Of a stretch of 64,000 bases of DNA, positions 1,223 through 26,041 are shown one piece after another (within the stretch, counting starts at the first letter, position 1; the number at the start of each line of letters is the position of its first letter). The notes under the pieces were generated by a model. The model saw nothing but the letters and a program-made list of their open reading frames with translations, had not been told where the DNA came from and did not search any database. The stretch covers positions 128,001 to 192,000 of IMG/VR virus record IMGVR_UViG_3300009431_000002. The stretch is one strand, 5' to 3'. This DNA comes from a virus. Taxonomy: Duplodnaviria; Caudoviricetes. Made by a program: the position numbers and the translations under genes.

Positions 1223-1234
1223 GGGGCCGGCCGT

Positions 1235-4233: not shown

Positions 4234-7073
4234 TGGCTCGGGATGTAGTGCTCGGTCTTCTGGACCTTCTCCTCGGTCACGGACAGCCCACGCAGCATGG
4301 CACGGAGCTGCTCGTCACCGAGTCGCGCCCGCTTGCGCGCGTGGGTCTTGGGCGTCGTGAAGTACGGGTCGCGCAGGCCCAGCAGCATCTCTGGCGTGAG
4401 CATCAACGCAGCGAGCCCTGTGCCGGCGGCGACGGCGCCCCCGATGCCCACCGCGGCCTGGGTGACCGAGCGGGACCGGGGCAGTAGGTCTTCGGCGAGC
4501 CCGATGCCCAGTGGAGCGAAGGCAGGGGCGCCAGACAGGCCGACCAGCGGCGTGGCGATGCCCAGGACCTTGGCCGTGTTCACCAGCCTGTCCTTGTCGG
4601 TCTTCATCCCCTTGGGCGCCGGCGTTCCGCGCGCGGCCGCGCGGTAGTACTGGCGCAGGGTGTCGATGAAGTACTGCTCGCGCGCCTGCTTCTTCTCGTT
4701 GCCCACGGCCTCGACGTACGGGTCGGCCATGTCCTCGATCTTGTCGCCGAACTCGTTCCAGTACGCCTCCATGATGGGCTGGTCGGACTTGACGAGGCTG
4801 CGGCCCTCCTGGAAGGGGATGCGCTTGGCTGCGGCCCGCAGCTTCTTCTTGTCCACCTTGGCCGCGGAGATCTTCTCCATCTCGTCGTCGAAGGCGGCCT
4901 GCATCACGGCGAGCTTGAGCAGGGAGTCCTCGGCGAGCTCACCGACGGCGTAGTCGAACTCGGACTCCACGCTGGCGGCCTTGGACTTGCCCTTCAACTG
5001 GTGGCGGAACGACTCGTTGAGCACGTCCTTGCGCTTGGCGACGTCGTACATCCACTCGTCGGGCGAGGTCTCCCGCTTGAACGGGTTGTACATGATCGGC
5101 GCGCCGGCGGTGGTCAGGCGGTCGAGGAAGCCTCCAGGGGAGATGAGCTTCAGCGTGTCCTTGGCGGTCTGCGTGGCCGAGCGGGGCACGACGCTGACGT
5201 ACCGGCGGATGACGACCTTGCGCTGCTCCGGCTCCCGGTGCGCGAGCCCGCCGGCGCGGACCGCGCGGGCCTCGGCCTGCTGGATCTTCTCGGGGTTGAA
5301 GTGGCCGTCGAGCGCCGCGAACATCGTGGCGTTCTTGAGGTCCAGCCCCTCGCCGCCGGCGGCAGAGATGACGAGGACCTTGTTCTTGCCCTTGTTGAAG
5401 TCGCGCACAGACCGTTGGCGCTTCTCCTCGGTCACCCCGGGCTGGCCCTTGCCCACGAAGGTGCCGAAGGGGATGCCGCGGTCCTTCAGCCCCGCGGACA
5501 CGACGTCGACCCCACCCTTGATCAAGTTCGAGTGGATGACGACCTGGCCGTCTTCGGTCTCGGCGAGGTGGTCCTCGACGTCGTCCAGCATCACCTTGAC
5601 CTTCGGCGTCTTCTGCGCCGACTCGGTGATGTCCATGTCGTTGTCGATGGTGTGGATCGAGTTCGAGACCTGCCGGGCCTGGATGATCTTGGCGAAGATG
5701 TTGTTGAGGTCCCGGCTCTTGAGCTGGCTGGCACCGAAGCGCAGCTTGATGGCCGTGACGGGGTCGAGCTTGTCCACCACGTAGCGGTAGAGCTCCTCCT
5801 GTCGCGGGCTCATCATCACCTTGACCTCTTCGACGACCTTGTCGGGCATGCGCTCGTCGTCCATGTCCTTGGTCTCGAAGTGGTCGACGAACGGGTTGAG
5901 CAGGGCGCGCACCATCCGCGGCCGCGCGATGGTCTTCTGCCCCTTCTTGTCCTCGCGGACGAAGCGTCGCTCGAAGTGGTTCTTGGTGCCCAGGCGGTGC
6001 TTGCCGCCGGTCATGGCGTCGACCAGCGGGACCATGTCGCCCGGGGTGTTGTTCATGATCGACCCAGTCAGGCCGATGAAGTTCTTGTGGTGCGGGCGCG
6101 CGTCCTTCAACGTCTTGTAGGTCGCGCCCTCCTCGTTGCGGATCCGGTGGAGCTCGTCGTAGATGACGGTGTCCGCGCCCGAGGCCTTGATGTACTTCTC
6201 CGGGTCCTTGCGGAACATCTCGTAGCTGACGACGTGGTAGCGGGCACCGTCGTCGGGGTCCTCGGCGGCCCTGGCAACGCCCTTGGCTACCTCCTGGCTG
6301 TTGCCGAAGATCGCACCGCGGGCGTTGGTGAACTTGCGGACCCCGTTGTCCAGGAAGTTGGCGCGCAGCGACGCCGGCGTCACGACCAGCGCGCGGCTGG
6401 CGTCCCCGGAGTCTCGCATCTTCTCGAACGAGGCGATGGCGGTGATGGTCTTGCCGGACCCCGTGCCGTGGGACAGGAGCAGGGAGCCACCGCGGTTCAT
6501 CACCTTGTCGACCGCAGCCCTCTGGTGCTCGAACAGCTCGACGTTGCGCTTCAGTCCCTTGGGCTCGAACCTCTGTTCCTTCTTGCGCTTCGCCACCTTC
6601 ACCGAGCTAGCCTTGGCCATGCCCGGCGCCGCCTCTCCCATCGTCTCCGCGGACCGCCCGACGACCCGGCCCAGGTGCTCCGGCAGCTTCCGCAGCTTGC
6701 CCTTCAGCAGCTGCTCCGCCTCCACCGAGCTGGGTGAGGGTGCGAGGCCGAGGAGCTTCGACGCGAGCATGTCTCCCTTGAGGGCACCGAGTCCCGCGAC
6801 CTCCGCTGTGCCAGGCACGGGCAGGGCTGCTGCTGCACCCATCGCCGCGGGGATGGTGGCGATGTTGTCGGTAGCGGCGCCGACCAGGACTCGCTGGGTC
6901 TCAGGGTTGAGCAGGTGGAATCGAGAGGTCCCCGGAACCTCCGTCAGCAGCACGCGCTGGAGAGCGTCGGACGCGCCGCCCGCAGCCTGCTCCACCGCCT
7001 GCCCGACGCGCGGCAGCCCGACGCGGCGGAGGAGTTCGCCTGTGATCTGCCCACGTGCCGCCGCCTTCTCCAT
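4230..7073 (-). CDS. SNF2/SWI2-family helicase-like ATPase with N- and C-terminal extensions
   Basis: LFEHQ (Q motif), LLSHGTGSGKT (Walker A), ALVVTPASL, VIYDELHRIRN (Walker B), LTGSIMNN, SAAGGEGLDLKNA, IQQAEARAVRAG (motif VI). Confidence 0.88.
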   Translation of the reverse strand: MEKAAARGQITGELLRRVGLPRVGQAVEQAAGGASDALQRVLLTEVPGTSRFHLLNPETQRVLVGAATDNIATIPAAMGAAAALPVPGTAEVAGLGALKGDMLASKLLGLAPSPSSVEAEQLLKGKLRKLPEHLGRVVGRSAETMGEAAPGMAKASSVKVAKRKKEQRFEPKGLKRNVELFEHQRAAVDKVMNRGGSLLLSHGTGSGKTITAIASFEKMRDSGDASRALVVTPASLRANFLDNGVRKFTNARGAIFGNSQEVAKGVARAAEDPDDGARYHVVSYEMFRKDPEKYIKASGADTVIYDELHRIRNEEGATYKTLKDARPHHKNFIGLTGSIMNNTPGDMVPLVDAMTGGKHRLGTKNHFERRFVREDKKGQKTIARPRMVRALLNPFVDHFETKDMDDERMPDKVVEEVKVMMSPRQEELYRYVVDKLDPVTAIKLRFGASQLKSRDLNNIFAKIIQARQVSNSIHTIDNDMDITESAQKTPKVKVMLDDVEDHLAETEDGQVVIHSNLIKGGVDVVSAGLKDRGIPFGTFVGKGQPGVTEEKRQRSVRDFNKGKNKVLVISAAGGEGLDLKNATMFAALDGHFNPEKIQQAEARAVRAGGLAHREPEQRKVVIRRYVSVVPRSATQTAKDTLKLISPGGFLDRLTTAGAPIMYNPFKRETSPDEWMYDVAKRKDVLNESFRHQLKGKSKAASVESEFDYAVGELAEDSLLKLAVMQAAFDDEMEKISAAKVDKKKLRAAAKRIPFQEGRSLVKSDQPIMEAYWNEFGDKIEDMADPYVEAVGNEKKQAREQYFIDTLRQYYRAAARGTPAPKGMKTDKDRLVNTAKVLGIATPLVGLSGAPAFAPLGIGLAEDLLPRSRSVTQAAVGIGGAVAAGTGLAALMLTPEMLLGLRDPYFTTPKTHARKRARLGDEQLRAMLRGLSVTEEKVQKTEHYIPSH

Positions 7074-7074
7074 G

Positions 7075-8052
7075 TCAGTGCCCTTCCTGCCGGCTCACCG
7101 ATGGGTACAGGCCGCCGGTCTTGATGAGTCCCTCGGAGATCCGCTTGCCCCGCACGTCGCGGCGACGCAGCAGTCGTCGGAAGTCGTCGAACGACATCGT
7201 CGTCATCGACCCGAAGAACTTGGGGCTGTTGTAGTGCTTGAGGTACGCCCGCTTCGCCTCCTTGGCATTGCGGAACCCCAGCATGCACTTGTCCTCGTCG
7301 TACTCCTTGAAGCCGGGCTTCTTCATCTGGTGGACGATGTACACCACGTCGGAGTGGAGGTCTGGCCCGACGTACACGTCGACGGGGTCGCCGTCGGGGG
7401 CCATGGTCCGTCGGACCTCACCGTAGTGGTGCTGCATCTTCGTGCTGCCGGACTCGCCGGTGTTCTCGTCCTTCCAGTGCCGGCTGGAGCCGCGGCGGTT
7501 CTCGATGTAGATCTTCAACCCACGGAAGTCGATGGTCCCCTGGTAGGGCCACTCCTTCCTGTTCCGCTTCGGCGGCGGGCCCACCTTGGGCTTGACCTCC
7601 TTGGGGTCAGCGCCGTTGGCCTTGGCCACCTTCTCCAGCGCCGCGATGATGGCGAGCCCACTGGCCTTGTAGAAGTTGCCCTCGTTCACACCGACCGTCT
7701 CACTGTTCCGCGCGTCCTCCAAGCCCTTCAGCCCGTCCTTCGTCAGCTCGGGGCCGCCCTTGACCTTCAGGAACTCGTGCCCGTCGCCGTCGACACTGGT
7801 CTTGTAGGCGCGGCTGGCGCCGATCTGGCTGTTGTGCTCGACCGCTCGGAGCAGCCGGACCATCTTGGCGACGGTCTCCGGGTGGCCCTCGAGCTCCAGC
7901 TTCACCGAGGCGCGCGGCTGCTCACCGACCTTCTCCGGCAGCTTCTCGTCCGGTGTGTGCCTCTCCCACTTCTTGACGGTGCCCTTGGGCACACGACCAT
8001 CCGCCTCCATGGCGTGGAAGAGTCGTCGCTGTGCCTCGCTCTGGAATGGCAT
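7075..8052 (-). CDS. Protein with C-terminal inorganic pyrophosphatase-like (InPase) domain
   Basis: GLKIYIENRRGSSR...MQHHYGEVRRTMAPDGDPVDVYVGP...IVHQ...YDEDKCMLGF..AKEAKRAYLKHY. The DxDxxD motif matches family I PPase-like domains described in phage polyvalent proteins. Confidence 0.72.
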   Translation of the reverse strand: MPFQSEAQRRLFHAMEADGRVPKGTVKKWERHTPDEKLPEKVGEQPRASVKLELEGHPETVAKMVRLLRAVEHNSQIGASRAYKTSVDGDGHEFLKVKGGPELTKDGLKGLEDARNSETVGVNEGNFYKASGLAIIAALEKVAKANGADPKEVKPKVGPPPKRNRKEWPYQGTIDFRGLKIYIENRRGSSRHWKDENTGESGSTKMQHHYGEVRRTMAPDGDPVDVYVGPDLHSDVVYIVHQMKKPGFKEYDEDKCMLGFRNAKEAKRAYLKHYNSPKFFGSMTTMSFDDFRRLLRRRDVRGKRISEGLIKTGGLYPSVSRQEGH

Positions 8053-8055
8053 CGT

Positions 8056-12339: not shown

Positions 12340-13431
12340 TCACCTCAAGTACGTGTTCTGGGCCAGGATGGAGCTGGCCGGAGTCGTCGGGGCCGCGGCT
12401 GTCGTACCCGCCACGGAGTGCGTGTGCGACTGGAGCCAGGAGACGAGCGTGTCTCCCAACACACCCTTCTGCGCGCCCTGCTGACCGCCGACCGTTACCT
12501 TCCCGCTGGGCTCCACCACGACGGAGCCTCCGCCCATCGTGATGTTGCCGGTGGCCGTGATCTCCACGTCGCCACCGCTGTCTATCTTCACACTGGTTCC
12601 ACCCTTGAGCATAGCTTCTTGAGTGGCTTCGACCTTCGCGTTCTCCTGTGCCACGAGCTCGATGTTCTTCTTGGCCGCCACCAAGAAGCTGTCCTCGACC
12701 GCCCAGGAGACCTCGCCGTTGTGCTTCACCGTCAGCTCGGCGTTGAGCGTCGCCTCCTCGGCGCCATCCACGTTCACGCCGAGCCGTAGGGCCACGTCTT
12801 CGTCGTCAGGGTCGTGGCCGAGCAGCAGGGAGCACACGTAGCCTGGGTCCGTGGCCTTCTCCTTGGCCCGCAGCAGCAGCGTCGTGGTCTTGTCTCCGTC
12901 CGCGTTCTTCTCCGGCCGGTCGACCAACCAGGTCAGCTCGCCGCCGAACGTCCGCAACTCGTACTGTGAGCACACGTCGCGGATCATCCGATGGATCGGC
13001 AGGTACAGGCGCTGGGCCAGGGGGCCGGCCATCACCTGCACCACGCCACCGCGTCGGATGGTGATGCCGTTGCCGTCCCTCGTGCTCATGTGGATGTCGC
13101 CGGGGTTGAGGTCCTTGCGGGTGGCGCGCCACCCCTCCTCCCCCGGCGGCGGCGCGTACCCCAGGATGAACGGGTGCTCCCCGTCGCTCGGCCAACAGAC
13201 CCAGCACATCGCCCCGACCTCCGGCATGATGTACACGCCTTCGCCGAAGTAGTGGTGCATGTACGGCGACATGAACGGCACGTCCCCGTAGTAGCGCATC
13301 GAGTGCTGGGTCACGAAGTCCACGGAGTACAACGGCGGGTTCACGTTGATGACCTGGGCGGACTCCACGTACGCCTCGGTGAGCTCACCGAGAGCAATCG
13401 GTCGCGGTTCCTGGTGGGTCGCCCGAGTCAC
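12340..13431 (-). CDS. Baseplate central spike (gpV/gp5/VgrG-like)
   Basis: N-terminal OB-fold pattern (VINVNP..YSVDF...PEVGAMCWVCWPSDG..PFILGY), beta-repeat middle region, C-terminal HTH (His-x-His) metal-binding tip (SHTHSV). Confidence 0.75.
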   Translation of the reverse strand: MTRATHQEPRPIALGELTEAYVESAQVINVNPPLYSVDFVTQHSMRYYGDVPFMSPYMHHYFGEGVYIMPEVGAMCWVCWPSDGEHPFILGYAPPPGEEGWRATRKDLNPGDIHMSTRDGNGITIRRGGVVQVMAGPLAQRLYLPIHRMIRDVCSQYELRTFGGELTWLVDRPEKNADGDKTTTLLLRAKEKATDPGYVCSLLLGHDPDDEDVALRLGVNVDGAEEATLNAELTVKHNGEVSWAVEDSFLVAAKKNIELVAQENAKVEATQEAMLKGGTSVKIDSGGDVEITATGNITMGGGSVVVEPSGKVTVGGQQGAQKGVLGDTLVSWLQSHTHSVAGTTAAAPTTPASSILAQNTYLR

Positions 13432-13438: not shown

Positions 13439-13861
13439 TCAACGACGGAGCAGCGTCGCGCCCCCGAGGCCCAACGTGCCGAGACCAGCCATGCCTCCGG
13501 CGCCGGCCAGCGCACCGCCGCCGACGTCACGGGCGAGGTCGCCGCCCTCCTGGACCTGCTTGCCCCAGCCCTCGAGGCCCTCGCCCCAGCCGCGGCGTGT
13601 CTTGCCGGCGTCCAGGGCCTCCGTGCTCATCTTGCCCTTGGGCTGGGCCTTCACGGCGCGGGCCATGGCGTCGTCGCCCGACTGGGTGAGCTTGCCGCCC
13701 AGCCACTTGGCGCCGCGGCCGATGAGCTTGCCGGCCTGCTCGATGAGCGCGAGCTTCTCGAGGTCGCTCAGGCCACGGGCGTCTGCCACCTTCTCGAGCT
13801 CGTCGAGGAACCCGCCGACGAAGGCGTGCTCGCATGCGGCCGCGTGCTTCTCCATATCCAT
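13439..13861 (-). CDS. Small Gly-rich protein with GFLDELEKVA motif, probable virion-internal
   Basis: RBS GGAGG; MEKHAA...GGFLDELEKVA...LEKLA; Gly-rich hydrophobic C-terminus. Confidence 0.65.
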   Translation of the reverse strand: MDMEKHAAACEHAFVGGFLDELEKVADARGLSDLEKLALIEQAGKLIGRGAKWLGGKLTQSGDDAMARAVKAQPKGKMSTEALDAGKTRRGWGEGLEGWGKQVQEGGDLARDVGGGALAGAGGMAGLGTLGLGGATLLRR

Positions 13862-13870: not shown

Positions 13871-14656
13871 CTATCCAAAGTGGCGCGGCGTTGGCGCGTC
13901 GAGCCACAGATATTTGCTTTCGTGCGCTGACAGCCGAGGCTTGAGCCACCGCATGGCTTCCTGAGGCCCGCGGCTCTGCAACTGCTCCCGGTACGCGTCC
14001 TGTATCTGACTGTACTCTAAATCTCGTCGGTCGACCGACCGCTCCAGCAACGCCCGAAACCGACGTCGCATAGCCTTCGGCATCTTCTGCCCAGGACGGC
14101 CAACGAACCCACCTGCGCGGGCGTCCCCGAACGCCTCGGACGCCTGCCTGGACAGACGCCTGTACTCCGGTTCGCGCAGCCTACGCCACAATCCAGCCGT
14201 CTCCCAGCCACCGCCCGGGCCCTCTAAGGTGTTAATGAGATTGGACTCCTGGACCAGCACATCTGGCTCTGCGTGACCAGAGACCAGTTCCGTGAGCTTC
14301 TCGCCGTAACGGCCAGCTTTCCGCTCCGCAGCCTCGTGTATGGTGGCGATCCCACGAAGGTTGGTTTGTGCCTCCCTGGAGGCGTGTGGGGCAATACCGC
14401 GACCCGCGGATGGCGCCACGTAGACGGCACCTGCAGCCCGAGCCAGGGCCGGGGACTGATCCTTTATGGCCTCCGGCAAACGCTTCGGTATGTGGAACGC
14501 GCCAGCGCGCATCGGTGTGGTGCCGAGCTCCTCCCAGGCTTTCGCTGGTAGCCTACGCAGTGGGGCGATGCGCTCGGTAGCCACGCGAAGATCTGCAGCT
14601 GACACCGCGATCTTCACAAGCTCGTCGCAAAACGCCGCCAGTCGCCTCCGCTCCAT
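13871..14656 (-). CDS. Hypothetical protein with AFCDELVKIA motif and atypical codon usage
   Basis: 261-aa ORF in the operon, containing IHEAAE. Uses A/T-ending codons (TTA, ATT, AAT) that are rare elsewhere in the window. Confidence 0.6.
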   Translation of the reverse strand: MERRRLAAFCDELVKIAVSAADLRVATERIAPLRRLPAKAWEELGTTPMRAGAFHIPKRLPEAIKDQSPALARAAGAVYVAPSAGRGIAPHASREAQTNLRGIATIHEAAERKAGRYGEKLTELVSGHAEPDVLVQESNLINTLEGPGGGWETAGLWRRLREPEYRRLSRQASEAFGDARAGGFVGRPGQKMPKAMRRRFRALLERSVDRRDLEYSQIQDAYREQLQSRGPQEAMRWLKPRLSAHESKYLWLDAPTPRHFG

Positions 14657-14664: not shown

Positions 14665-17600
14665 CTAGTACCCGACGCGGAACTCCGTGGTGCCGGGTGT
14701 TCCTTTCTCAGGCTGCCCGAACTCGGAGCCATAGGCTAGCGCCGGGATCGGATGCAACCCGTGGATGTTGCTGGACCAGCCCCTCAAGGCACCGTCGACG
14801 ATGGTGTCCTTCAGCTTCTGGTACTGGAGCCGCGCCATCCAGTCCTCCTGCATGTCCAGCGGCGTCTGCGTGACCCCGCGCAGGATGGGCGTGAACTTGA
14901 CGGGCTTCTTGCGCTTCTTGTTGTGGTACCCGACATTCGACGTGGACACCAGGTCTCCTGGGAGGAGGTCGGTGTCGCCGGCGTCATCCACTACGCCGAG
15001 GTCGGTGATGGCGCGGACCGCGGTCTCCACGTTGCGCCGGAGCACTGGGCCCGCGTCCGAGTACGCCTTGTGGACCTCGTCCGCGAGGTAGCCGCGCACC
15101 GTGTTGATGTTGGTCAGCGGCAGCATCTCGTGCGGATTGATGGGCCCGCCGGAGAGCCGGTCCCCCTTGCGGACCTTCACGCCCTTGCGCAGCTTGATCT
15201 TCTCGTTGACCAGGTGCTCGGGGACGTAGTGCCTCTTCCCCTTGACCCAGATGTTGAGGCCGCCGACCTCGGCGTCCTTCTCCACCCGCTCTACGGTGCC
15301 CGTGGTCGTCGCCAGCGTCGCCGAGTCCGCCAGCACCTTGGGCATGCGCAGCAGGTCCTGGACCCTGGTGAACTTGTCGGTGGACCGGCCGCTCTTCGAG
15401 GCAGCGACCCCGCCTTCGTGGAACGCGCGCATCGACAACTGCGTGGCGGGCTCGCCCAGTGCCTGCGACGCGATGACCCCGATGTTGGTCCCCGGGTCGG
15501 GCAGCTGGCCGTCCGGCAGGTTGCCGTAGTCCCGTGCGTACAGTCCCTTCGGGGCCACCGACTTCAGCGGGCTGCGGATCGACACGCGCCGGACGCCGCT
15601 GTTCTTCATCCTCGTCTGGACCCGGTCGGTGACCTCGGTGTTCCTCGGCAGGACGTCGCCGCCCCGGAGCTTCACGGGCCGCGCGAGGTAGCGACCGATG
15701 ACCTCGCGGTCCTCGGGGTCCGCGCTGATGCCGTCGTCGGCGTCGTCCGGCGCGTCCCCATCGACCACGACGAGGTTCATGGCAGAGTTCACGACGTCCT
15801 TGGTCAGCGCGCCGGGCTTGGCGGTCTCCTTCGTCTTCTGGATCATGCCCTTGCGCGCACCGTGCATGGCCGTGAAGTAGCTGGCGGAGTCCAGGCCCTC
15901 GGCGTAGCTCTTGGTGATCGGCACCGGCACGATGCGGTCGGCCGCGTCCTTCACCAACATGGGGGCGATGAGGATCTGCCGGACCTGGTCCCAGTTGCCG
16001 CGAGCACCGGCGTTGACCATCTCCAGGGCGTGGTTGCCCTGCCGCTCCAACTTCGGACGGATGGCCCGGCTCAGGTCCTCGGTGGCCTTGGAGTAGAGGT
16101 CGACGAGGCGCTGGTCCTTCTCCTCCTGGGTCAGCGACTTCATCTTCTGGATGCGCTTGGCCGCCTTGTGGACCCCAGCCAGGGCGCGGTCGCGCACAGC
16201 CTGCTGCGCCTGGAAGTCGTCGAGGGTGAACGACGCGCCAGACTCGTAGGCGTAGTCGTTGCCCATGTCCTTGAGGTCGTTGACGACGTCGCCGAAGTCG
16301 GCCGAGTGCTCCTTGGCCATCCGGGTGAGGAGGTCCTTGGTCGGGCCCTTGGACATCCGGAAGTCCTTGGAGTGGAGCAGCTGCGCGTCCCCTCGCATCC
16401 CCTCCGGCAGCACGCGGTCGAGGAGGATGCGACCGAGGGTCGTCTCCCTGCCCTTCACCGAGACCACGTCGGTCATGCCGAGGCCGAGCTTGCGGGCCTT
16501 GGCCGCCACCTGCGCCGGCGAGTCGAAGCGGTGCGACGTCTTCTTCCCCCACTCTGTCAGCCGGTACAGCCCGAGCTGGGCCTCGTGGCCCGGGGAGTAC
16601 ATCACCCGGCCGGTGGTGGTGTTGAACAGGTTGTTGGACGGGAAGAGCTTGCGCGCCTCCTCCACCGCCTCCTTGGCGAGCGGAACGTAGGCGGACATCT
16701 GGTCGCCGTCGAAGTCGGCGTTGTACCCCGAGGTCACCAGGGGGTGGATGCGGATGGCCTTGCCGCCGACGAGCTTGGGCTTGAACGCCATGACCCCGAA
16801 CTTGTGGAGCACCGGGTCACGCTTCAGCAGCACCGGCCGCTCCTCCATCACGCGCTCAAGCGCGTGCCGGGCGACCTTGGAGTTGGTCCGGACCAGGTGC
16901 TGTGCCTCGGCGGGGACGTAGCCCTGCTCCCGCACCAGCTTTCGCACGACGAAGGGCTTGTACGTCTCCTTCGCCAGCTTGTAGGGGATGCCCACCTCGT
17001 CCAGTCCCATGTCGGGCTCGGGGATGATGGTGGACCGCATCGACAGGTCCTGCCGGCGGGAGACGAGGTTCTTCTGGAAGAACGAGTCCTTGGGCTGGGG
17101 CACGCCCTTCATCGTCTCCATCACGCCGCGGTGCTTGCGGCCGTTGATGGTGGAGCCGGTCATCATCAGGGCGCGGAGCCCGTCGTAGAGCTCGGCGGTC
17201 AGCTTGCTCTTCGTCTTCTCCCCGAGTCCGGGGTCGTAGTCCCGCAGCTGGATGTTGGTGATGCCGAGGCTCTTGTACAGGCCGTTGATGTCCGAGTCGT
17301 TGAGCTTGCCCGACTCCATCACCGAGACCGGCCGCATCACCGGCGGCATGACGGGCACGACCGAGGTGAAGTACGCCTGGTCGGGGGTCAGGTCGTTGGC
17401 GACCAGCGCCTCGAGGAACCGGATCTGCTTGCGCAGCTTCGCCATCGTCGACACGGCCTTGGTGGTCTCGGCCTGGCGACGGAGCGTCTCCAGCTGCTGC
17501 CGTGGGTCGATGGCCGCCAGCCGTGCGCGGATGGCTTCGGGCCCGGTCTTCCCGTCGAGCGTCTTCTCGCCGGCGATGACGGCCTGGTAGTCCTTGTTCT

Positions 17601-20600
17601 TCAGCCCCGTGAAGGTGAGGATGGCCTTCTCGAACACCGGGTTCGGCATGGGCTCGGCCAGCCGGATGTGGGACCAGCGCTTGCCGTCCACACCGCCCGT
17701 GGCGTAGGGGTCGAACAGCCCGCCGCGCTCCGGCTTGAGGTCCTTGCCCCGGAACATCAGGCCCGGGTCCTTCAGTTCGCCGCTGGACATCCGCAGGATC
17801 TGCTCGTCGGTGAGGGGCGCGAGGTTCAGGGTCGAGCCCTGCTTCTTGACGTCGACGCCCAGCACGTTGAGGTAGCCGTTGAACTTGTCGAAGGCGAACG
17901 AGGTGGACGGCGGTGGGAGCTGCTCCCCAGTCTGCAGGGCCATCCACAGCTCGGGGTTCTTCTGGCTCTTGTAGGTGGCCATCTCCCGGATGTTGGCCTT
18001 CGCTCCATGAGCCAACATGGCGTACATGCCCAACGCGTCCATGGCCTGGGCGCCGTGGGCACCACCGCCCTTCGGAACCTCGTTGACGCTGTACGCGTAC
18101 CCGGCCCCGCCCGCGCGGGCGTGGGACTTCTTGTCGATCTGGTGCTTGAGCTTGAGGATGTACTGGTCGCCCGTGAGGATCGGCCCCAGGCTCTGCCCGG
18201 ACTTGGGGTCCACCAGCTCCTCGGTGTCGGACAGGCCCTCCTTCGCCAGCTCCGCCTTCATCTCCTTGGCGTAGTTGCGGTTGGCCCCGCCGAAGTTGTT
18301 GGTGACGTACCGCTTGCCCCGCTTCCGGGCGATCTTCCCGGCCATCGTCTCGAGGACCTGGCCGAGGTTGATGCGGCCGGGGATGCCAGCCGGGTTGAGC
18401 AGGACCTCGACCGGGGCGCCCTCTTCGCCAGAGGCGCGCGGCATCTCGTGGTCAGGCAGCACCGCCGTGACGATGCCCTTGTTGCCGTGGCGTCCGACCA
18501 GCTTGTCCCCGACGCGGGCAGGCTCCTCGGTGGCGACGTGGACGCTGACGTCCTTGCCCCGCTTGACGACGCGGACCACCCGGCCCTTCGTGTCCTTGTC
18601 CCAGACGATGGGCTTGGGGTCCATGTCCCGCACGAGGCTCTTGTGCAGCCGCGCCCGCATGCGACGCTCGCTGGTCTGCTCCGGCTTCTTCAGCGCGGCG
18701 ACGAGGATGTCCCCCTCGTTGACCTCCTGCCCCACCTGGATGACGCCGTCGTCGTCGAGCTTGTCGTAGACCTCGCGCTGCACGCGGTCGGGTGGCGCGT
18801 ACGCGCGGAACTTCTTCTTGTCCAGGACCGTGTTCTTGGTCAGCCGCATGCTCTTGCGGTGCATGTGCTGGGACTTGAGCTTCTCGGCCGCGGACTCGGA
18901 GACGACGATGCCGTCCTCGAAGTTGTACCCACGGTACGGGATGTAGGCCACCCGGAGGTTCTTGCCCAGCGCGAGCTTGCCTTCGCGCGTGAAGTTGGTG
19001 TCGGCCACCGTCTGGCCGCGCTTGACCTTGTCCCCCTTCTTCACGAGGGGCTCGGAGTGCAGGACGCTGGACGCCTCGTTGAGCGGGAAGTGGTCGTAGA
19101 GCTGGACCTCCTCCAGCTTCCCGGCCTTGCTCCGGATCTTGATGGCGCCGGGCCTCACCGACACCACGGTGCCTTCCACCGGGGACTCGTGGGAGTTGAA
19201 CTGGCCCAGCACGTCCTCGAAGGTGGACCTCACCTCGGTCTTGGACTGCACCAGCGGCTCGTCGCGGTCCACCAGGGGCACGGCCTGCTCCTGCTGCCGG
19301 GACGCCGTCATGGCCCTGTTGCCCTGGTTGTTCTGCAGGAAGGGCACGAGGTTGGTGGCCATGCTGAACAGGCCCTTGGCCGACGGGAGGATGTAGTCCA
19401 CCTCGCTGGCCGGCACCTGCATCACCTCGCCGCCCGGGCCGCTGACCGTCACCTCCTTACCGATGGGGACGAGCCGGTTCTTCACCTTCTTGTACTGGTC
19501 TGGGAAGGCGACGGTGGAGCGGTGCGCCTTGTGCGGATCGATCTTCTCCCGGCGGCCCGTCTTCGTGTTGTAGGCCTGGATGTAGAGGGTCTTGCCCTTC
19601 CGCGACACCCCCAGCGGGAGCTGGAGGGTGATGCCGGTGCGGTCACCCTCCGGGGTGTGGATGGGGTCGAGGAAGCCGAGGTGCGTCGGGTCGATGAGCT
19701 GGTCGGCGTCGGTCAGGGTGTGGGTGCTCTTGACCCCGCCCTCGCCCATGATGGTGGTCTTGGACTGGCCGGAGATGAACTCCAGCGGGTTGACCTGGTC
19801 GGGCATCTGCGACAGCTGGGTCTGGGTGAAGAAGGTCTTGATGGGCTTGTCGAACAGCCCGGGGGTCACGACCTCCCTGACGTCGGCCTTGCGGTCGATG
19901 TTGTTCTCCATCTTCCGCTGCAGATCCCAACGGCCGCGGGTCAGCCGCTCGGCCACGAAGTCGTCGACCGACAACGCGTCCTTGTAGAACAGGTGCTCAC
20001 GCGCGTCCGGGGTGTCCTCGCCCCTCGAGATCCGCGCGAGCTTGTGGGCCGAGGCCAGGAGCGACGGGCCGCTCACCTTGTCGTAGGCCTTGCCCAGGGT
20101 GATCTTCGTGCTGTCGGGGCGCAGCACGGTCGTGCCGAACTCATCTCGGAGGTGGCGCTCGGCGTCCTCGATGCTGGGTGCCTGCTTGCCCGTCGACGCC
20201 TTGTAGAAGGCGCGCATGGCGACGTCGTGCTTCTCCTTCTTCCCCTGGTTGAGGATCCCGCGGCCCAGCTCGCGCTCGATGGTGTCGTCGTCGACCCCCA
20301 GCACCTTGAGCATCGGGTAGAGCGGGATGTGGGAGTTGCCGTACCGGACCAGGAACCGCCGGTCCTCCGGGTGGAACCGGAGCCGGAAGTTCTTGCCTTT
20401 CGCCATGTTCCACTGGGACTCCAGCTCACCCTTGGCGCTGACGCGGTGGTACACCCCAGCCTTCAACCGGAACTGGTTGTCGACCTGGTACTCCTTGCCG
20501 TCGACGATGTAGGAGTGCCGCTTGGTCACGCGGGGCAGGTTGCCCACGCGCATGGACTTGCGGCTGATGACCTTGCCCGTCTCCTTGTTGACCAGGGAGA

Positions 20601-20811
20601 CGTCGGCCATAACAGGGTCAGCCCAAGTCCTGCCCTTGAGCTTCGCGTCCTGCTGGGACCGGATGTCGTCGATGCCCTTCTTGTCGTCGACCCAGACCCG
20701 GTGGAGCTCCAGCCGGTTCTCTCGCCCCTCGAAGGGGAACATCGACGAGATGGCGTCGCTGACACGGTCTTTGAGGGCACCGTAGGAACCCTCTGGGTTC
20801 AGTGTCGCCAT
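14665..20811 (-). CDS. rpoBC: DNA-directed RNA polymerase, single-polypeptide beta-beta' fusion (phage-encoded)
   Basis: Beta motifs: QLSQMPDQVNPL, THLGFLDPIHTPEG, NLVPFLQNNQGNRAM, GYNFEDGIVVSES, GDKLVGRHGNKG, LLNPAGIPGRINLGQ, YILKLKH. Beta' motifs: PVMPPVMRP, RRQDLSMRSTI, KRDPVLH, YNADFDGDQM (16702-16722), HGARKG bridge helix, SQALGEPATQLSMRAFH trigger loop. Confidence 0.95.
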   Translation of the reverse strand: MATLNPEGSYGALKDRVSDAISSMFPFEGRENRLELHRVWVDDKKGIDDIRSQQDAKLKGRTWADPVMADVSLVNKETGKVISRKSMRVGNLPRVTKRHSYIVDGKEYQVDNQFRLKAGVYHRVSAKGELESQWNMAKGKNFRLRFHPEDRRFLVRYGNSHIPLYPMLKVLGVDDDTIERELGRGILNQGKKEKHDVAMRAFYKASTGKQAPSIEDAERHLRDEFGTTVLRPDSTKITLGKAYDKVSGPSLLASAHKLARISRGEDTPDAREHLFYKDALSVDDFVAERLTRGRWDLQRKMENNIDRKADVREVVTPGLFDKPIKTFFTQTQLSQMPDQVNPLEFISGQSKTTIMGEGGVKSTHTLTDADQLIDPTHLGFLDPIHTPEGDRTGITLQLPLGVSRKGKTLYIQAYNTKTGRREKIDPHKAHRSTVAFPDQYKKVKNRLVPIGKEVTVSGPGGEVMQVPASEVDYILPSAKGLFSMATNLVPFLQNNQGNRAMTASRQQEQAVPLVDRDEPLVQSKTEVRSTFEDVLGQFNSHESPVEGTVVSVRPGAIKIRSKAGKLEEVQLYDHFPLNEASSVLHSEPLVKKGDKVKRGQTVADTNFTREGKLALGKNLRVAYIPYRGYNFEDGIVVSESAAEKLKSQHMHRKSMRLTKNTVLDKKKFRAYAPPDRVQREVYDKLDDDGVIQVGQEVNEGDILVAALKKPEQTSERRMRARLHKSLVRDMDPKPIVWDKDTKGRVVRVVKRGKDVSVHVATEEPARVGDKLVGRHGNKGIVTAVLPDHEMPRASGEEGAPVEVLLNPAGIPGRINLGQVLETMAGKIARKRGKRYVTNNFGGANRNYAKEMKAELAKEGLSDTEELVDPKSGQSLGPILTGDQYILKLKHQIDKKSHARAGGAGYAYSVNEVPKGGGAHGAQAMDALGMYAMLAHGAKANIREMATYKSQKNPELWMALQTGEQLPPPSTSFAFDKFNGYLNVLGVDVKKQGSTLNLAPLTDEQILRMSSGELKDPGLMFRGKDLKPERGGLFDPYATGGVDGKRWSHIRLAEPMPNPVFEKAILTFTGLKNKDYQAVIAGEKTLDGKTGPEAIRARLAAIDPRQQLETLRRQAETTKAVSTMAKLRKQIRFLEALVANDLTPDQAYFTSVVPVMPPVMRPVSVMESGKLNDSDINGLYKSLGITNIQLRDYDPGLGEKTKSKLTAELYDGLRALMMTGSTINGRKHRGVMETMKGVPQPKDSFFQKNLVSRRQDLSMRSTIIPEPDMGLDEVGIPYKLAKETYKPFVVRKLVREQGYVPAEAQHLVRTNSKVARHALERVMEERPVLLKRDPVLHKFGVMAFKPKLVGGKAIRIHPLVTSGYNADFDGDQMSAYVPLAKEAVEEARKLFPSNNLFNTTTGRVMYSPGHEAQLGLYRLTEWGKKTSHRFDSPAQVAAKARKLGLGMTDVVSVKGRETTLGRILLDRVLPEGMRGDAQLLHSKDFRMSKGPTKDLLTRMAKEHSADFGDVVNDLKDMGNDYAYESGASFTLDDFQAQQAVRDRALAGVHKAAKRIQKMKSLTQEEKDQRLVDLYSKATEDLSRAIRPKLERQGNHALEMVNAGARGNWDQVRQILIAPMLVKDAADRIVPVPITKSYAEGLDSASYFTAMHGARKGMIQKTKETAKPGALTKDVVNSAMNLVVVDGDAPDDADDGISADPEDREVIGRYLARPVKLRGGDVLPRNTEVTDRVQTRMKNSGVRRVSIRSPLKSVAPKGLYARDYGNLPDGQLPDPGTNIGVIASQALGEPATQLSMRAFHEGGVAASKSGRSTDKFTRVQDLLRMPKVLADSATLATTTGTVERVEKDAEVGGLNIWVKGKRHYVPEHLVNEKIKLRKGVKVRKGDRLSGGPINPHEMLPLTNINTVRGYLADEVHKAYSDAGPVLRRNVETAVRAITDLGVVDDAGDTDLLPGDLVSTSNVGYHNKKRKKPVKFTPILRGVTQTPLDMQEDWMARLQYQKLKDTIVDGALRGWSSNIHGLHPIPALAYGSEFGQPEKGTPGTTEFRVGY

Positions 20812-20863
20812 GGAACGTCCAGTTGTGCCATCAGGCTACAGTGCAAGGGATGCTGTGGCAACG

Positions 20864-20879
20864 GGTACAAGTAGAGTAA
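20864..20879 (+). promoter_or_regulatory. Candidate promoter motif copy 2 (GGTACAAG-TAGA-GTAA)
   Basis: In the divergent gap between the RNAP gene and a plus-strand block, before RBS GAGGAGG. Confidence 0.45.
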
Positions 20880-20900
20880 CCAACAGAGGAGGTCTGCTGC

Positions 20901-21107
20901 ATGATTGAAATCGTACCCACCGAAGACCACACCCTCGACGATCTGGACGACGAGCCCATCGTGCTCGCCGGCCCGGGCGATGACGAGGATGACAACGATG
21001 ACGAAGAGGAGGACAATGAGGAGGAGGTCGACGAGGACCGGGAGGACCGGACGAGTCCAGAGATCCTCGACGACGCCGTCGATGAGGCGATCTACGGCGA
21101 GGAGTAG
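20901..21107 (+). CDS. Small, extremely acidic protein (68 aa)
   Basis: Strong RBS GAGGAGG; long Asp/Glu run (DDEDDNDDEEEDNEEEVDED). Confidence 0.75.
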   Translation: MIEIVPTEDHTLDDLDDEPIVLAGPGDDEDDNDDEEEDNEEEVDEDREDRTSPEILDDAVDEAIYGEE

Positions 21108-22208: not shown

Positions 22209-22232
22209 GAGTGGGGGCCGCCCCACTCTTTT
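22209..22232 (+). terminator. Intrinsic terminator
   Basis: GAGTGGGG-CCGC-CCCCACTC followed by TTTT, between convergent genes. Confidence 0.75.
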
Positions 22233-22241: not shown

Positions 22242-24239
22242 TCAGACGACCGCCCGCTCGAGGGGCCGGCGCGGGGGCTTCTGCTCGGGGAGGGGCTGCT
22301 GAAGCGGATTCAGCGTGTCTCGCTGGCCTCCATCGCCCTCGCTCAGCAGGGCCTGGACCATGCGGTAGATGTCGGGGCTGCCCATCCGCAGCTTCTGCAT
22401 GGCCTGCGGGAACATGGCCGGCTGCTCGTCCTGGATCCGGCGCATCTCCGTGGCGATGCGTCGCGCGACGAAGCGGACGTCGACCATCTCGTTGCCGCCG
22501 GTCATCTGCCCCATGTGCATGGGGGACTGGACCTCCTGCGGGAGGTTGTCGACGTACACGGCCGCGCCGTCCGGCACACCCGGACCGATCTGCTCGCCGC
22601 GCATGACCGATGGCTGGGTCTGCGGCAGCTCGGCGTAGGACGGCGGGGACTCCGGCGGCTGCTGCATCTGCATCTGCATGTGCTGGGCCTGGATCTCGTA
22701 GCGGAGGGCCGCCAGCTGGGCCTCCCCCTGCGCCGCGGCCTGGGCCACCACCATCTCGCGGTTGGCTGCCACCTGCTTGACCAGCTCCTGCTTCTTCCGC
22801 TTCTCCTCGGTCTCCAAGTCCTCGCCGAGCTCGCGGAGGAACGTGGTGTCGGAGATCTTCATGGCCTGGTTCGCCTGGAAGTAGACCATCAGCCTCTGCA
22901 GGTCGTCGGCCATCTTGAACCGCTCGAACCGGATGGGCACCCTCGGCCAGCCGAGGAACTCGCAGATGCGGCCCATGACGAAGTCGCCAACCAGCCGGAG
23001 TTGGTCGTCGCGGTACCCACTGAACTGGTTCTCGAGGATGCGCATCGACACGTTGGTGCCGGTGTACTGCATGCCACCGAAGATGAACTCGATGGGCACG
23101 TTCATGCCCGCGATGATCTGCTCGCTCCAGACCCGCAGCTCCTGGTGGAGGATGAGCGCCCGTCCCTGGCCGCCGATCATCTCGTGGCCGAGTGGGATGG
23201 GCATCAGCGGGATGTAGTTGGGGTCCTGGCGCCAGCGAGCGATCTCCTCCTGGACCTGGTCCTTCCACTCCCCGAGGTTGATCATCGTGATGGGGTCGCC
23301 GGTCTGCCCGTTGGCCTGCGGGTACAGCACGCGCAGCGGGACGATGTGCTCCTGGGCGATCATCTCCTGGCCCTTGCGCAGGACCTGCAGGTAGAAGATG
23401 TCCTTGAGCACGGGCAGGACCAGCGGCATGCCCCAGCCCTGGTCCTTCTGGGCGATGATGGGCCGCTTGAGGTGGAACAGCGTGCCCGGCGCGAACTTCA
23501 CCGACTTCTTCTTCCGCATCGCCTCGATGAAGGTGTCGGGCACCGTCTCGATGACGTTGCGGCGGCCGATGGTGATGGCGTTCTTCAGCTTCTGCGGCAG
23601 CTTGTAGAAGTAGGTCGGGTCGGTGACGCCCTCGTTGTCGTCGATCTCCACCCGCTCCGGGTCCCACCGGACCAGCCGGATGCCCTTGGCCGTCCGCATG
23701 GCCTCGTCGTGGACCTCGGCCGGCCGGCGCTCCCCGCACTCGGGGCAGGTCAGGTAGTAGACCATCTCCTGGTAGCGGTAGTGCCTGCGGAGCTTGTCGA
23801 TGGGCGCCTTGTGGCCGCAGTGACGGCACTTGAGGTGCTTGACGAAGGGGAAGTGCACCGTGACGAAGGCGTTGCCGTAGTTGTAGTAGTCCAGCCCCAC
23901 CTCGATCTGGAACTTGCGGACCTGGAGCTGGTCCTCGAAGAGGTGGCGGTACCGCTCTCGGACGTCCTTGTCGTCGGCCTCGTAGATGATCTTGGTGATG
24001 GGGTACTCGGCCAGCTTGTACACGACCGCGTTGATGAGCGGGTTCGTGAAGAAGAAGTACCGGCACCACTGCAGCATCTGCTTGAGGCGCGCGGGGAAGT
24101 ACGTCTGGGCGGCGTCGAAGAACGGGTTGGGGTACCGCACCCCGGTCCGCTGCATGCTCGAGCCGAGCGTGACGGGCGTGCGGGAGAAGCGGGTCAGCCC
24201 GTCACCGTAGGAGACGCCGGTGTACCCGAGGCCTGGCAT
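22242..24239 (-). CDS. Probable portal protein with zinc-ribbon insertion
   Basis: YFFFTNPLINAVVYKLAEYP...GLDYYNYGNAF...IRLVRWDPERVEI...HLKRP....GWGMPLVLPVL resembles the portal motif order (N-terminal helix, YGNAF, HLK/G.P segment). Insertion CRHC...CPEC; Gln/Pro/Met-rich C-terminus. Confidence 0.6.
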   Translation of the reverse strand: MPGLGYTGVSYGDGLTRFSRTPVTLGSSMQRTGVRYPNPFFDAAQTYFPARLKQMLQWCRYFFFTNPLINAVVYKLAEYPITKIIYEADDKDVRERYRHLFEDQLQVRKFQIEVGLDYYNYGNAFVTVHFPFVKHLKCRHCGHKAPIDKLRRHYRYQEMVYYLTCPECGERRPAEVHDEAMRTAKGIRLVRWDPERVEIDDNEGVTDPTYFYKLPQKLKNAITIGRRNVIETVPDTFIEAMRKKKSVKFAPGTLFHLKRPIIAQKDQGWGMPLVLPVLKDIFYLQVLRKGQEMIAQEHIVPLRVLYPQANGQTGDPITMINLGEWKDQVQEEIARWRQDPNYIPLMPIPLGHEMIGGQGRALILHQELRVWSEQIIAGMNVPIEFIFGGMQYTGTNVSMRILENQFSGYRDDQLRLVGDFVMGRICEFLGWPRVPIRFERFKMADDLQRLMVYFQANQAMKISDTTFLRELGEDLETEEKRKKQELVKQVAANREMVVAQAAAQGEAQLAALRYEIQAQHMQMQMQQPPESPPSYAELPQTQPSVMRGEQIGPGVPDGAAVYVDNLPQEVQSPMHMGQMTGGNEMVDVRFVARRIATEMRRIQDEQPAMFPQAMQKLRMGSPDIYRMVQALLSEGDGGQRDTLNPLQQPLPEQKPPRRPLERAVV

Positions 24240-25178: not shown

Positions 25179-26041
25179 GGCCGCATCATCTCCATCTGTT
25201 GGGCCAGCTGGCGCCGGCGCAGCTTCATGTACTCCCGCGCCCGCAACACTCTGGCCACGCATCGATCCACCTGGGTCTCCCCCAGATCTACTTGGTCCAG
25301 GCCCTTACCGGCAACTGATTCGTACCGCTCCTTGACCGGCCGGTAGTCGTTGATGAAGTAGCGCTCGACCTTCCCGTGCCCCAGCTTCTTCGCCGGCGAG
25401 TCCGCCGTGGGCTTGCCATCGAGGTTGTGCTCACCTCGGAAGCGCTTGGCGCAGACGTCACACGTGTCGTCCTCGAGGTCGTCCTCGTCCTCGTTGCCGC
25501 AGCTGGTACACCTGTACATCGGCCGCGCGGCCAGCCGCTGTGCGAAGTCCAACGGCGGCGGGAGGAACCACACGCCGTCCGACAGCGCGGCCGCGGCGAC
25601 GAACCGGGCCACCTCGTCCGAGAACTTCCGGCCGTCCACACTCTCCATCATGTCCACGCCGGCCGCCAGCGCGTCGAAGGAGGGCTGCTGGATGATGTCG
25701 AACCTCGGGATGTTGTTGTTCAGCGCCTGGATGGTGGGGACGAAGGCGTCCCAGCTGATCCAGCAGGCGTCCGTGGCGTGCAGCGTCTTCACCGCCATGA
25801 TCTTGTTGCGGTTCAGCTCGCTGATCTCCAGCTGTCCACCGCCGAGCAGAGCCTGCCCGAAGTACCGCTTGATGCCGTCCCACACAGCCTCCGGCACCCA
25901 CTCCCACCAGTCCTTCCCGAAGGCGGTGACGATGACGGCGTCGAGGACCAAGGGGTGTGCGTCGTGGTGGCGAAAGAGCGTGGCTGGCCGAATGTCGTCC
26001 GGCTGGGTGGTCAAAGCGGTGGCCGGGGACGCATCAGCCAT
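25160..26041 (-). CDS. Hypothetical protein with zinc ribbon (CTSC...CDVC)
   Basis: GC3-rich ORF whose start overlaps the upstream gene's 3' end. Confidence 0.68.
   Translation of the reverse strand: MADASPATALTTQPDDIRPATLFRHHDAHPLVLDAVIVTAFGKDWWEWVPEAVWDGIKRYFGQALLGGGQLEISELNRNKIMAVKTLHATDACWISWDAFVPTIQALNNNIPRFDIIQQPSFDALAAGVDMMESVDGRKFSDEVARFVAAAALSDGVWFLPPPLDFAQRLAARPMYRCTSCGNEDEDDLEDDTCDVCAKRFRGEHNLDGKPTADSPAKKLGHGKVERYFINDYRPVKERYESVAGKGLDQVDLGETQVDRCVARVLRAREYMKLRRRQLAQQMEMMRPWLLAP

What the first reader, a model, noticed from the sequence alone, without database searches (positions are those of the whole stretch)
14665..20811. Cellular-type RNA polymerase as one compact beta-beta' polypeptide inside a virion gene block
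Seen: all beta motifs, then all beta' motifs, in a single 2048-aa ORF. The junction (about 17800-17890, FNGYLNVLGVDVKKQGSTLNLAPLTDEQIL) has no linker. No alpha, omega or sigma gene is in the window. Known: E. coli beta plus beta' totals about 2750 aa; phiKZ-type phages split these subunits into more pieces; natural beta-beta' fusions occur in Helicobacter and Wolbachia. Inference: a streamlined, possibly alpha-independent phage RNAP, co-transcribed with spike and capsid-internal genes and therefore a candidate virion-packaged enzyme.
Basis: partly seen in the sequence, partly recalled or inferred. Interest (0 to 1): 0.82.

Follow-up and report, generated by a model that had tools for sequence, protein, structure and literature searches.

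The report
Single-chain beta-beta' phage RNA polymerase
One 2048-codon gene of an uncultured 202-kb marine phage encodes both large subunits of a bacterial-type RNA polymerase as a single slimmed-down, cysteine-free protein; it belongs to a large phage family, unpublished as far as I could search, that carries its own sigma factor and probably brings the enzyme into the cell inside the virus particle.

Summary
Window 14665-20811 (minus strand) is a real 2048-aa ORF with all beta modules followed by all beta' modules. They meet at a fixed-length, conserved junction with no linker.

It is neither an assembly error nor a captured host gene:
- More than 100 homologues of about 2050 aa exist in independent assemblies.
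- The same junction occurs in the cultured Salmonella phage Arash.
- In two trees the family forms its own clan, outside 22 bacteria from many phyla and outside the published mReC phage polymerases.

Compactness comes from missing lineage-specific inserts and the missing beta' N-terminal zinc domain. This sub-clade has also lost the second zinc site and has no cysteine at all.

The genome encodes one polymerase and no alpha or omega. It does encode a sigma-70-family protein outside the window, and that protein is present in 5 of 5 complete relatives and in Arash.

In Arash the polymerase homologue gave the most spectra of any protein in purified particles, and sigma and the Snf2 helicase were detected too. 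Virion delivery is therefore likely but inferred.

This scan has met the same family before on other DNA. I found no paper describing it.

The parts
14665..20811 (-). Whole fused beta-beta' RNA polymerase gene (2048 aa plus stop)
17845..20811 (-). Beta module, residues 1-989 (aligns with E. coli beta 51-1338). It lacks E. coli inserts SI1, SI2 and the 1137-1189 insert.
18475..18510 (-). Beta active-site motif GDK..GRHGNKG (residues 768-779)
17806..17844 (-). Beta/beta' junction, residues 990-1002. K990, G992 and P999 are conserved in 90-91 of 91 family members. The flanking segment has the same length in 86 of 91.
14668..17805 (-). Beta' module, residues 1003-2048 (aligns with E. coli beta' 28-1347). 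It lacks the N-terminal zinc-binding loop (E. coli 64-95), E. coli 147-177, and SI3 (948-1133).
16702..16722 (-). Catalytic Mg-binding motif NADFDGD (residues 1364-1370)
15529..15753 (-). Position of the second beta' zinc site. It has four Cys in 88 of 91 relatives; here the residues are A1687, S1751, Y1758 and D1761.
20812..20904 (.). 93-bp divergent intergenic region upstream of the polymerase gene. It should hold the gene's promoter. It contains neither a sigma-70 consensus match nor a TATAAG box.
13871..14656 (-). 261-aa ORF starting 8 nt after the polymerase stop codon. It has an FxDELxKxA motif at residue 9 and no family match.
13439..13861 (-). 140-aa ORF with the same FxDELxKxA motif at residue 18
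12340..13431 (-). Spike-like protein (weak Phage_base_V / DUF2345 matches). The same gene follows the polymerase in relatives.
7075..8052 (-). Protein with an InPase pyrophosphatase domain. PHROG families matching this domain are large phage proteins, some labelled minor head protein, virion structural protein, endolysin or DarB-like antirestriction.
4230..7073 (-). Cysteine-free Snf2-type ATPase. It is 28% identical to Arash Gp217, a particle protein.
22242..24239 (-). Portal protein, 30% identical to Arash portal Gp204 (E 3e-86). It lies upstream of the polymerase, as in Arash.

Best explanation
The gene encodes the complete catalytic core of a bacterial-type (two-barrel, multisubunit-class) RNA polymerase as one chain.

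Origin. The beta-beta' fusion is ancestral to a large lineage of phages of about 180-210 kb. The cultured Arash and D69 phages belong to a sub-branch that later re-split the chain after the catalytic domain.

Subunits. The covalent link probably replaces the assembly role of alpha, because the genome has no alpha or omega. Promoter recognition is most likely supplied by the phage's own three-domain sigma-70-family protein (genome 201197-201886, outside the window).

Mode of action. The polymerase gene heads a tightly packed run of genes for particle proteins. The enzyme is therefore probably made late, packed into the particle with sigma and the Snf2 ATPase, and delivered with the DNA. It would then transcribe early phage genes without host polymerase. 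As the only polymerase in the genome, it probably also serves the later gene classes.

Shown here: the fusion, intact catalytic motifs, the separate phylogenetic position, co-occurrence with sigma, and conserved gene order.

Inferred: binding of sigma, independence from alpha, packaging and injection in this phage, and the timing of expression.
For: Architecture and motifs. NADFDGD, GDK..GRHGNKG, the bridge helix, trigger loop, lid and clamp helices all align.

Family: 891 hits, with the best 120 all 1.9-2.9 kaa fusions at 42-67% identity, on contigs up to 204 kb. 255 IMG/VR stretches encode relatives.

Shared junction: Arash Gp206 aligns colinearly across the junction at 33% identity. Gp216 is the beta' C-terminal part.

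Trees: FastTree with 54 rows and IQ-TREE with 34 rows both put bacteria, mReC-type phages and the fused-plus-split family in three separate clans with 100% support. The split forms nest inside the fused ones. The best bacterial identities are only 27-32%, and the hits are spread over many phyla.

Sigma: Sigma70_r3 scores above Pfam's cut-off. NCBIfam sigma-family matches are present. The predicted fold matches sigma chains over its full length. It is 30% identical to Arash Gp10 and present in 5 of 5 complete relatives.

No alpha or omega. One polymerase only.

Context: the order portal, polymerase, spike, then terminase further on, is conserved. Gaps between genes are 4-9 nt, and no minus-strand terminator above background was found.

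Particles: Arash purified on a sucrose gradient gave 3516 spectra and 128 peptides for Gp206, more than any other protein. Gp216 gave 1210 spectra, Snf2-like Gp217 gave 1148, and sigma Gp10 had 100% coverage (PMC10585845).

Cysteine: the family has 0-6 Cys, against 13-27 in bacteria and 16-35 in mReC forms. In this phage, particle-block proteins have 0.4-0.9% Cys against 1.7-2.1% elsewhere.
Against: There is no direct evidence for this phage: no particle proteomics, no timing of expression, and no activity assay.

The Arash study listed 116 'particle' proteins, including ribonucleotide reductases and RNA ligases. Its authors themselves say that abundant intracellular enzymes may have been carried over.

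The polymerase has no N-terminal extension and lacks the FxDELxKxA motif seen on neighbouring small proteins, so no packaging signal is identified.

The region upstream of the gene holds no recognisable promoter of any class.

The sigma could instead serve the host polymerase.

Four ORFs of more than 1500 aa in the genome have no family match, so a second, very divergent polymerase cannot be strictly excluded.
Confidence: 0.6

Rival explanations
1. It is an intracellular (non-virion) phage polymerase. Host polymerase would transcribe the early genes, including this one, and the fused enzyme would then take over middle and late transcription. Its detection in Arash particles would be carry-over.
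For: The Arash particle list is very long (116 proteins) and includes metabolic enzymes, and its authors raise carry-over themselves. No packaging signal is seen on the polymerase. Five early-looking TATAAG promoters sit about 35 nt before plus-strand genes and could in principle be read by a host holoenzyme.
Against: The spectral counts of the Arash homologue exceed those of the major capsid and portal proteins. The gene sits inside the particle-gene run in every relative examined. The family-wide purge of cysteines matches this phage's particle proteins, not its replication enzymes.
Confidence: 0.27
2. The phage sigma redirects the host polymerase, as T4 or SPO1 sigmas do. The fused enzyme would work without sigma on a special template class, or serve another role such as priming.
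For: Published phage multisubunit polymerases lack sigma homologues. RNAP-lacking jumbo phages commonly encode sigmas for the host enzyme.
Against: Sigma and the fused polymerase co-occur in 5 of 5 complete relatives and in Arash. Both are found in Arash particles. The beta' clamp helices and the beta flap, which are the sigma docking elements, are retained without deletion.
Confidence: 0.1
3. It is a recently captured or contaminating bacterial rpoB-rpoC pair, or a Helicobacter/Wolbachia-type bacterial fusion.
For: Pfam and NCBIfam recognise every bacterial domain.
Against: All NCBIfam scores are far below their cut-offs, including both bacterial fusion models (595 against 5372 bits, and 522 against 4632). 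No bacterial genome among about 185,000 species is more than 32% identical. Bacteria form a separate clan with 100% support. The gene lies in a 202-kb virus record rated complete, next to portal, spike and terminase genes.
Confidence: 0.01
4. The single ORF is an assembly or frameshift artefact that joins two genes.
For: None beyond the general possibility in a metagenome assembly.
Against: The same fusion, with a junction of the same length, is found in 86 of 91 intein-free homologues from independent assemblies and in the complete genomes of cultured phages. A 151-nt contig from a public marine run matches 17710-17860 exactly and bridges the junction, although that run may be the source sample.
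Confidence: 0.01

Closest known systems
RNA polymerase of Salmonella phage Arash (Gp206 + Gp216, with sigma Gp10) and of Vibrio phages D69/D148/D181
   Same: It has the same beta-beta' junction (33% identity across it). A homologous portal lies upstream. The sigma and Snf2 proteins are homologous. It has very few cysteines and lacks the N-terminal zinc domain.
   Different: In Arash the chain is cut after the catalytic domain (about residue 1450 here) into proteins of 1525 and 606 aa, encoded 4.8 kb apart. Here it is one chain. In the tree the split form is derived. The Arash paper annotates the two proteins simply as beta and beta' and does not mention the fusion. Here the second zinc site is also lost.
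mReC phages (Weinheimer & Aylward 2020, PMC7481178)
   Same: They are uncultured tailed phages with compact, deep-branching bacterial-like beta and beta' that Pfam/COG models readily recognise.
   Different: The mReC forms have separate genes, listed as two proteins each in the paper's Supplementary Data 2. In the mReC-type loci I fetched the order is beta' then beta. They are only 24-26% identical, form a separate clan and have 16-35 cysteines. The paper reports a gp23-type capsid protein for the few mReC contigs where a capsid gene was found; PF07068 finds nothing in this genome.
phiKZ / AR9-type jumbo-phage multisubunit polymerases
   Same: They are phage-encoded two-barrel polymerases with no alpha or omega, and one set is packed in the particle and injected (PMC7598289, PMC7824862, PMC13282480).
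   Different: Those are split into 4-5 polypeptides, come as two paralogous sets (virion and non-virion), and have no sigma-70 homologue. Here there is one chain, one copy, and a sigma-70-family partner.
crAss-like phage gp66 and P23-45 tape-measure-fused polymerases; N4 virion polymerase
   Same: They are large single-chain polymerases carried in the particle for early transcription.
   Different: The gp66 and P23-45 enzymes are so divergent that beta/beta' models do not detect them. N4 vRNAP belongs to the unrelated T7-like class. The present enzyme keeps essentially every shared bacterial core region.
Bacterial beta-beta' fusions (Helicobacter, Wolbachia; NCBIfam NF007172, NF011417)
   Same: The order is beta then beta' in one polypeptide, joined where the two termini lie together in the clamp.
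   Different: Those are full-size proteins (about 2840-2890 aa), use alpha, omega and host sigmas, and belong to bacterial clades. The scores here are about a tenth of the model cut-offs.

Membership tests
Two-barrel multisubunit-class RNA polymerase catalytic core (beta + beta') | Beta' Mg-binding NADFDGD motif in the double-psi beta-barrel | tested here: met
   Residues 1364-1370. D1366, D1368 and D1370 are invariant in the family alignment.
Two-barrel multisubunit-class RNA polymerase catalytic core (beta + beta') | Beta barrel with the two catalytic lysines (GDK..GRHGNKG), plus the bridge helix and trigger loop | tested here: met
   Residues 768-779, 1642-1678 and 1775-1827 align with the E. 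coli elements without gaps.
Two-barrel multisubunit-class RNA polymerase catalytic core (beta + beta') | Full set of Rpb2 and Rpb1 Pfam domains in canonical order | tested here: met
   Five domains score above their gathering scores. Rpb1_1 scores 34.4, below its cut-off of 39.7.
Bacterial RpoB / RpoC equivalogs | Score above NCBIfam's curated cut-offs (TIGR02013, TIGR02386, NF001616) | tested here: not met
   357 against 801 bits, 542 against 963, and 407 against 896.
Bacterial RpoB / RpoC equivalogs | Both beta' zinc sites (E. coli C70/72/85/88 and C814/888/895/898) | tested here: not met
   The first site is deleted (E. coli 64-95 has no counterpart). The second is replaced by A, S, Y and D. 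The protein has no Cys.
Bacterial RpoB / RpoC equivalogs | Placement inside the bacterial clade | tested here: not met
   Bacteria form one clan that excludes it, with support 100.
Helicobacter/Wolbachia-type bacterial beta/beta' fusion | Score above the cut-offs of NF007172 and NF011417 | tested here: not met
   595 against 5372 bits and 522 against 4632. No Helicobacter or Wolbachia sequence was included in my trees.
mReC polymerases (Weinheimer & Aylward 2020) | Membership of the mReC polymerase clade | tested here: not met
   L075 is the mReC contig of sample 3300001782 (277,131 bp). Its group forms a separate clan, and identity is 24-26%.
phiKZ/AR9-type phage polymerases | Beta and beta' each split into several polypeptides, with two paralogous sets per genome | tested here: not met
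   There is a single ORF and a single copy.
Arash/D69 phage polymerase lineage | Homologous beta-beta' junction, and co-inherited portal, sigma and Snf2 genes | tested here: met
   The split forms nest within the fused ones.
Virion-packaged phage polymerases | The protein is present in purified particles and active on entry | not testable with these tools
   The only evidence is from a homologue: Arash Gp206 gave 3516 spectra, the highest count of any protein (PMC10585845).
Sigma-70 family (for the partner at genome 201197-201886) | Regions 2, 3 and 4 | tested here: inconclusive
   Region 3 scores 39.8 bits against a cut-off of 25.3. Region 2 scores 16.6 against 24. Region 4 shows only generic helix-turn-helix matches. 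The predicted fold matches sigma-S and sigma-A chains over about 240 columns at probability 1.0, but with low global TM-score.

The most novel reading that the evidence does not exclude
This is a self-sufficient minimal transcription machine. A single-chain, zinc-free and cysteine-free bacterial-type core enzyme, together with one small phage sigma, would be packed in the capsid, injected, and able to transcribe the whole phage genome with no host subunit (no alpha, no omega). The purge of cysteines would be an adaptation to life outside the cell. The fusion would be the ancestral state of a deep phage polymerase lineage rather than a derivative of any bacterial enzyme.
Probability: 0.4. Interest if true: 0.82.

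Novelty: new variant of a known kind. Interest (0 to 1): 0.68.

Why it matters
Bacterial-type RNA polymerases are thought to need the alpha dimer as an assembly platform and zinc sites for folding of beta'.

A natural enzyme that works as one chain, without alpha, omega, zinc or any cysteine, would show how far the core can be reduced. With a single small sigma it would also give a compact, genetically simple multisubunit-class polymerase for structural work and for engineering.

For phage biology it would add a fourth kind of particle-borne polymerase, and the first with a canonical sigma partner. Hundreds of uncultured phages of about 190 kb from many habitats carry it, and cultured relatives (Arash, D69) make it testable now.

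Tried and rejected
- Complex prediction of the sigma-like protein with polymerase residues 1085-1345 gave no verdict (score 0.09 against a mark of 0.32, after four unanswered tries). It counts neither for nor against binding.
- A search for a repeated promoter motif, starting from the region upstream of the polymerase gene, found nothing convincing. The sigma-70 consensus scan found no more sites than shuffled sequence.
- Public runs: no RNA holder was listed, and the one DNA holder covered the stretch only in short low-depth pieces.
- PF07068 (gp23 capsid) gave no match. PF03237 gave only a weak terminase match. The terminase and capsid genes were found with PHROGs instead.
- The giant ORFs at 45986-64000 and at the genome ends gave no hit in Pfam, PHROGs or PDB sequences.
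- Seven literature searches for a described fused phage beta-beta' enzyme found none. Two reviews, from 2020 and 2026, do not mention one.
- I did not fold the polymerase itself. The sequence alignment to E. coli already located every deletion.
- I did not use the representative-library search.
Full report
**Observation.**
The window is bases 128001-192000 of a 201,921-bp IMG/VR virus record that CheckV rates 100% complete. GC content is 67%.

The minus-strand ORF at 14665-20811 encodes 2048 aa. Its third-position GC is 0.96, like the surrounding genes. The 2040-aa ORF on the other strand is a high-GC shadow.

Pfam finds the Rpb2 domains and then the Rpb1 domains, in order. PHROGs finds phage beta and beta' families.

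E. coli beta ends at residue 989 (beta 1338 of 1342), and beta' residues 20-28 start at 995-1003. The two modules therefore abut.

Among 91 intein-free relatives the junction segment has the same length in 86. K990, G992 and P999 are conserved in 90-91 of the 91. The junction is a conserved structural element, not a floppy tether.

**What is missing.**
Relative to E. coli (2749 aa) the protein lacks the following:
- In beta: most of E. coli 230-421 (including insert SI1), 933-1047 (SI2) and 1137-1189.
- In beta': 64-95 (the loop with the four N-terminal zinc cysteines), 147-177, two short loops, and 948-1133 (SI3).

The catalytic motifs, bridge helix, trigger loop, lid, clamp helices and flap all align.

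The rifampicin pocket differs at E. coli positions 514, 526, 529, 531 and 533. I infer insensitivity to the drug.

The protein has no cysteine. 88 of 91 relatives keep exactly the four cysteines of the second beta' zinc site. This protein and its two closest relatives (67% identity) have A, S, Y and D at those positions.

**Not an artefact, not bacterial.**
The protein database returned 891 hits. The best 120 are all fusions, at 42-67% identity, on contigs up to 204 kb, and about 30 carry inteins. IMG/VR holds at least 255 related stretches.

Among one genome for each of about 185,000 prokaryote species, the best hits are ordinary rpoB-rpoC pairs. They are 27-32% identical and come from many phyla. 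NCBIfam scores are far below every cut-off.

I built two trees:
- FastTree, 54 rows and 1978 columns.
- IQ-TREE LG+F+G4, 34 rows and 1925 columns.

Both give three clans with 100% support: bacteria, mReC-type phages, and the fused family together with the Arash-type split forms. The split forms are nested within the fused ones (support 98-100). The trees are unrooted, and the phage branches are long.

**Relation to published work.**
The mReC phages of Weinheimer and Aylward list separate beta and beta' proteins. One of their contigs is my locus L075. In the mReC-type loci I fetched, the order is beta' then beta, and identity to this protein is 24-26%.

The Arash paper annotates Gp206 and Gp216 as beta and beta'. 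In fact Gp206 is beta plus the N-terminal half of beta', with the same junction, and Gp216 is the remainder.

Reviews from 2020, 2021 and 2026 describe only the split phiKZ/AR9 type. The 2026 review states that known phage enzymes have no alpha, sigma or omega homologues. Seven searches found no description of this fused family.

**Partners.**
No alpha or omega is detectable in the genome, and there is only one polymerase.

A 229-aa protein at genome 201197-201886 is the likely sigma partner:
- It has Sigma70_r3 above Pfam's cut-off, a weak region 2 and a C-terminal helix-turn-helix.
- It matches many NCBIfam sigma models.
- Its predicted fold (pLDDT 75) matches sigma-S and sigma-A chains over its full length.
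- It is 30% identical to Arash Gp10.
- It has one homologue in each of five complete relatives.

**Context and packaging.**
The polymerase gene is the first gene of a minus-strand run. Gaps between genes are 4-9 nt, and there is no terminator above background. In order, the run holds:
- two small ORFs that share an FxDELxKxA motif
- a spike-like gene
- an InPase-domain protein
- a cysteine-free Snf2 ATPase

Further on lie the terminase, a protease-like gene and the major head gene.

A portal homologous to that of Arash lies upstream. Relatives at 46-50% identity show the same order: portal-sized gene, polymerase, spike, then terminase.

In Arash particles purified on a sucrose gradient, Gp206 gave the most spectra of any protein (3516 spectra, 128 peptides). 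Gp216, the Snf2 homologue Gp217 and sigma Gp10 were also found. The authors caution that carry-over is possible.

Cysteine content points the same way, but only as an inference. The whole family has 0-6 Cys, against 13-27 in bacteria and 16-35 in mReC forms. In this phage the particle-gene blocks have 0.4-0.9% Cys, against 1.7-2.1% in the replication and other genes.

**Verdict.**
This is a genuine single-chain beta-beta' polymerase of a phage-specific lineage. It most likely works with the phage's own sigma and without alpha or omega, and it is probably delivered in the particle.

The architecture and lineage are shown. The partners and the delivery are inferred.

The scan has met the same family on at least four other genomes, with the same reading. 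This window adds a zinc-free, cysteine-free sub-clade.

Noticed in passing
window 14665-20811 (residues 1687, 1751, 1758, 1761 = 15529-15753): The polymerase has no cysteine in 2048 aa. Its sub-clade (P0001, P0003, P0004) has replaced the four ligands of the second beta' zinc site, which 88 of 91 relatives keep. Two split-type relatives (L049, L062) also have no Cys, which suggests a second, independent loss.
   Followed up: partly
window 13871-14656 (-), 13439-13861 (-), 24240-25262 (-); genome 119771-120046 (-), 921-1403 (-): Five otherwise unrelated proteins in particle-gene blocks share an FxDELxKxA motif near the N-terminus. Two of them are encoded directly after the polymerase. The polymerase itself lacks the motif.
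   Followed up: partly
L042 (IMGVR_UViG_3300000172_000001) 3001-9015; L059 (IMGVR_UViG_3300035698_022190) 3001-9012: In two low-GC relatives (34-36% GC) the fused polymerase frame is interrupted only by in-frame TGA codons (5 and 3), never by TAA or TAG. These phages probably read TGA as an amino acid.
   Followed up: partly
homologues P0017-P0121 (about 30 of 121, 2.3-2.9 kaa): Many family members carry intein or homing-endonuclease domains (PF14528, PF14890, PF05204, PF03161). In several long homologues the NADFDGD or GRHGNKG motif is no longer found contiguous, which suggests insertion there. The Vibrio phage D181/D148 genes are interrupted by homing endonucleases.
   Followed up: no
L100 (DATJQA010000074.1, Ca. 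Paceibacterota MAG) 163-7014: A 2284-aa fused rpoB-rpoC ORF groups with candidate-phyla-radiation bacteria in both trees. It appears to be an independent bacterial beta-beta' fusion.
   Followed up: partly
L065-L082 (IMG/VR), e.g. L075 2932-10368: In the mReC-type phage loci I examined, the two polymerase genes lie in the order beta' then beta, the reverse of bacteria and of the fused family.
   Followed up: partly
window 45986-64000 (-) and genome 188032-194241 (-): A run of giant ORFs (1976, 1589, 764 and 2069 aa) has no match in Pfam, PHROGs or PDB sequences. Their function is unknown.
   Followed up: partly
genome 10393, 18781, 40918, 73446, 87710 (+ strand; all outside the window): The hexamer TATAAG occurs five times, all on the plus strand. 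Four copies lie 33-37 nt before a plus-strand gene, and TATAAT never occurs. This fits the phage-specific -10 box reported by another reader.
   Followed up: partly
window 14752-20874 (+): A 2040-aa open frame runs antisense to the polymerase gene. It is a by-product of 96% GC at third codon positions, not a gene.
   Followed up: yes
window 22209-22228 (+): A strong terminator-like hairpin (8 pairs, 6 of them G-C, followed by a T run) closes the three-gene plus-strand unit that separates the portal operon from the polymerase gene.
   Followed up: no
window 7075-8052 (-): This is a stand-alone protein with an InPase pyrophosphatase domain. Its best PHROG matches are segments of very large multidomain phage proteins (up to 4647 positions), some labelled minor head protein or DarB-like antirestriction.
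   Followed up: no
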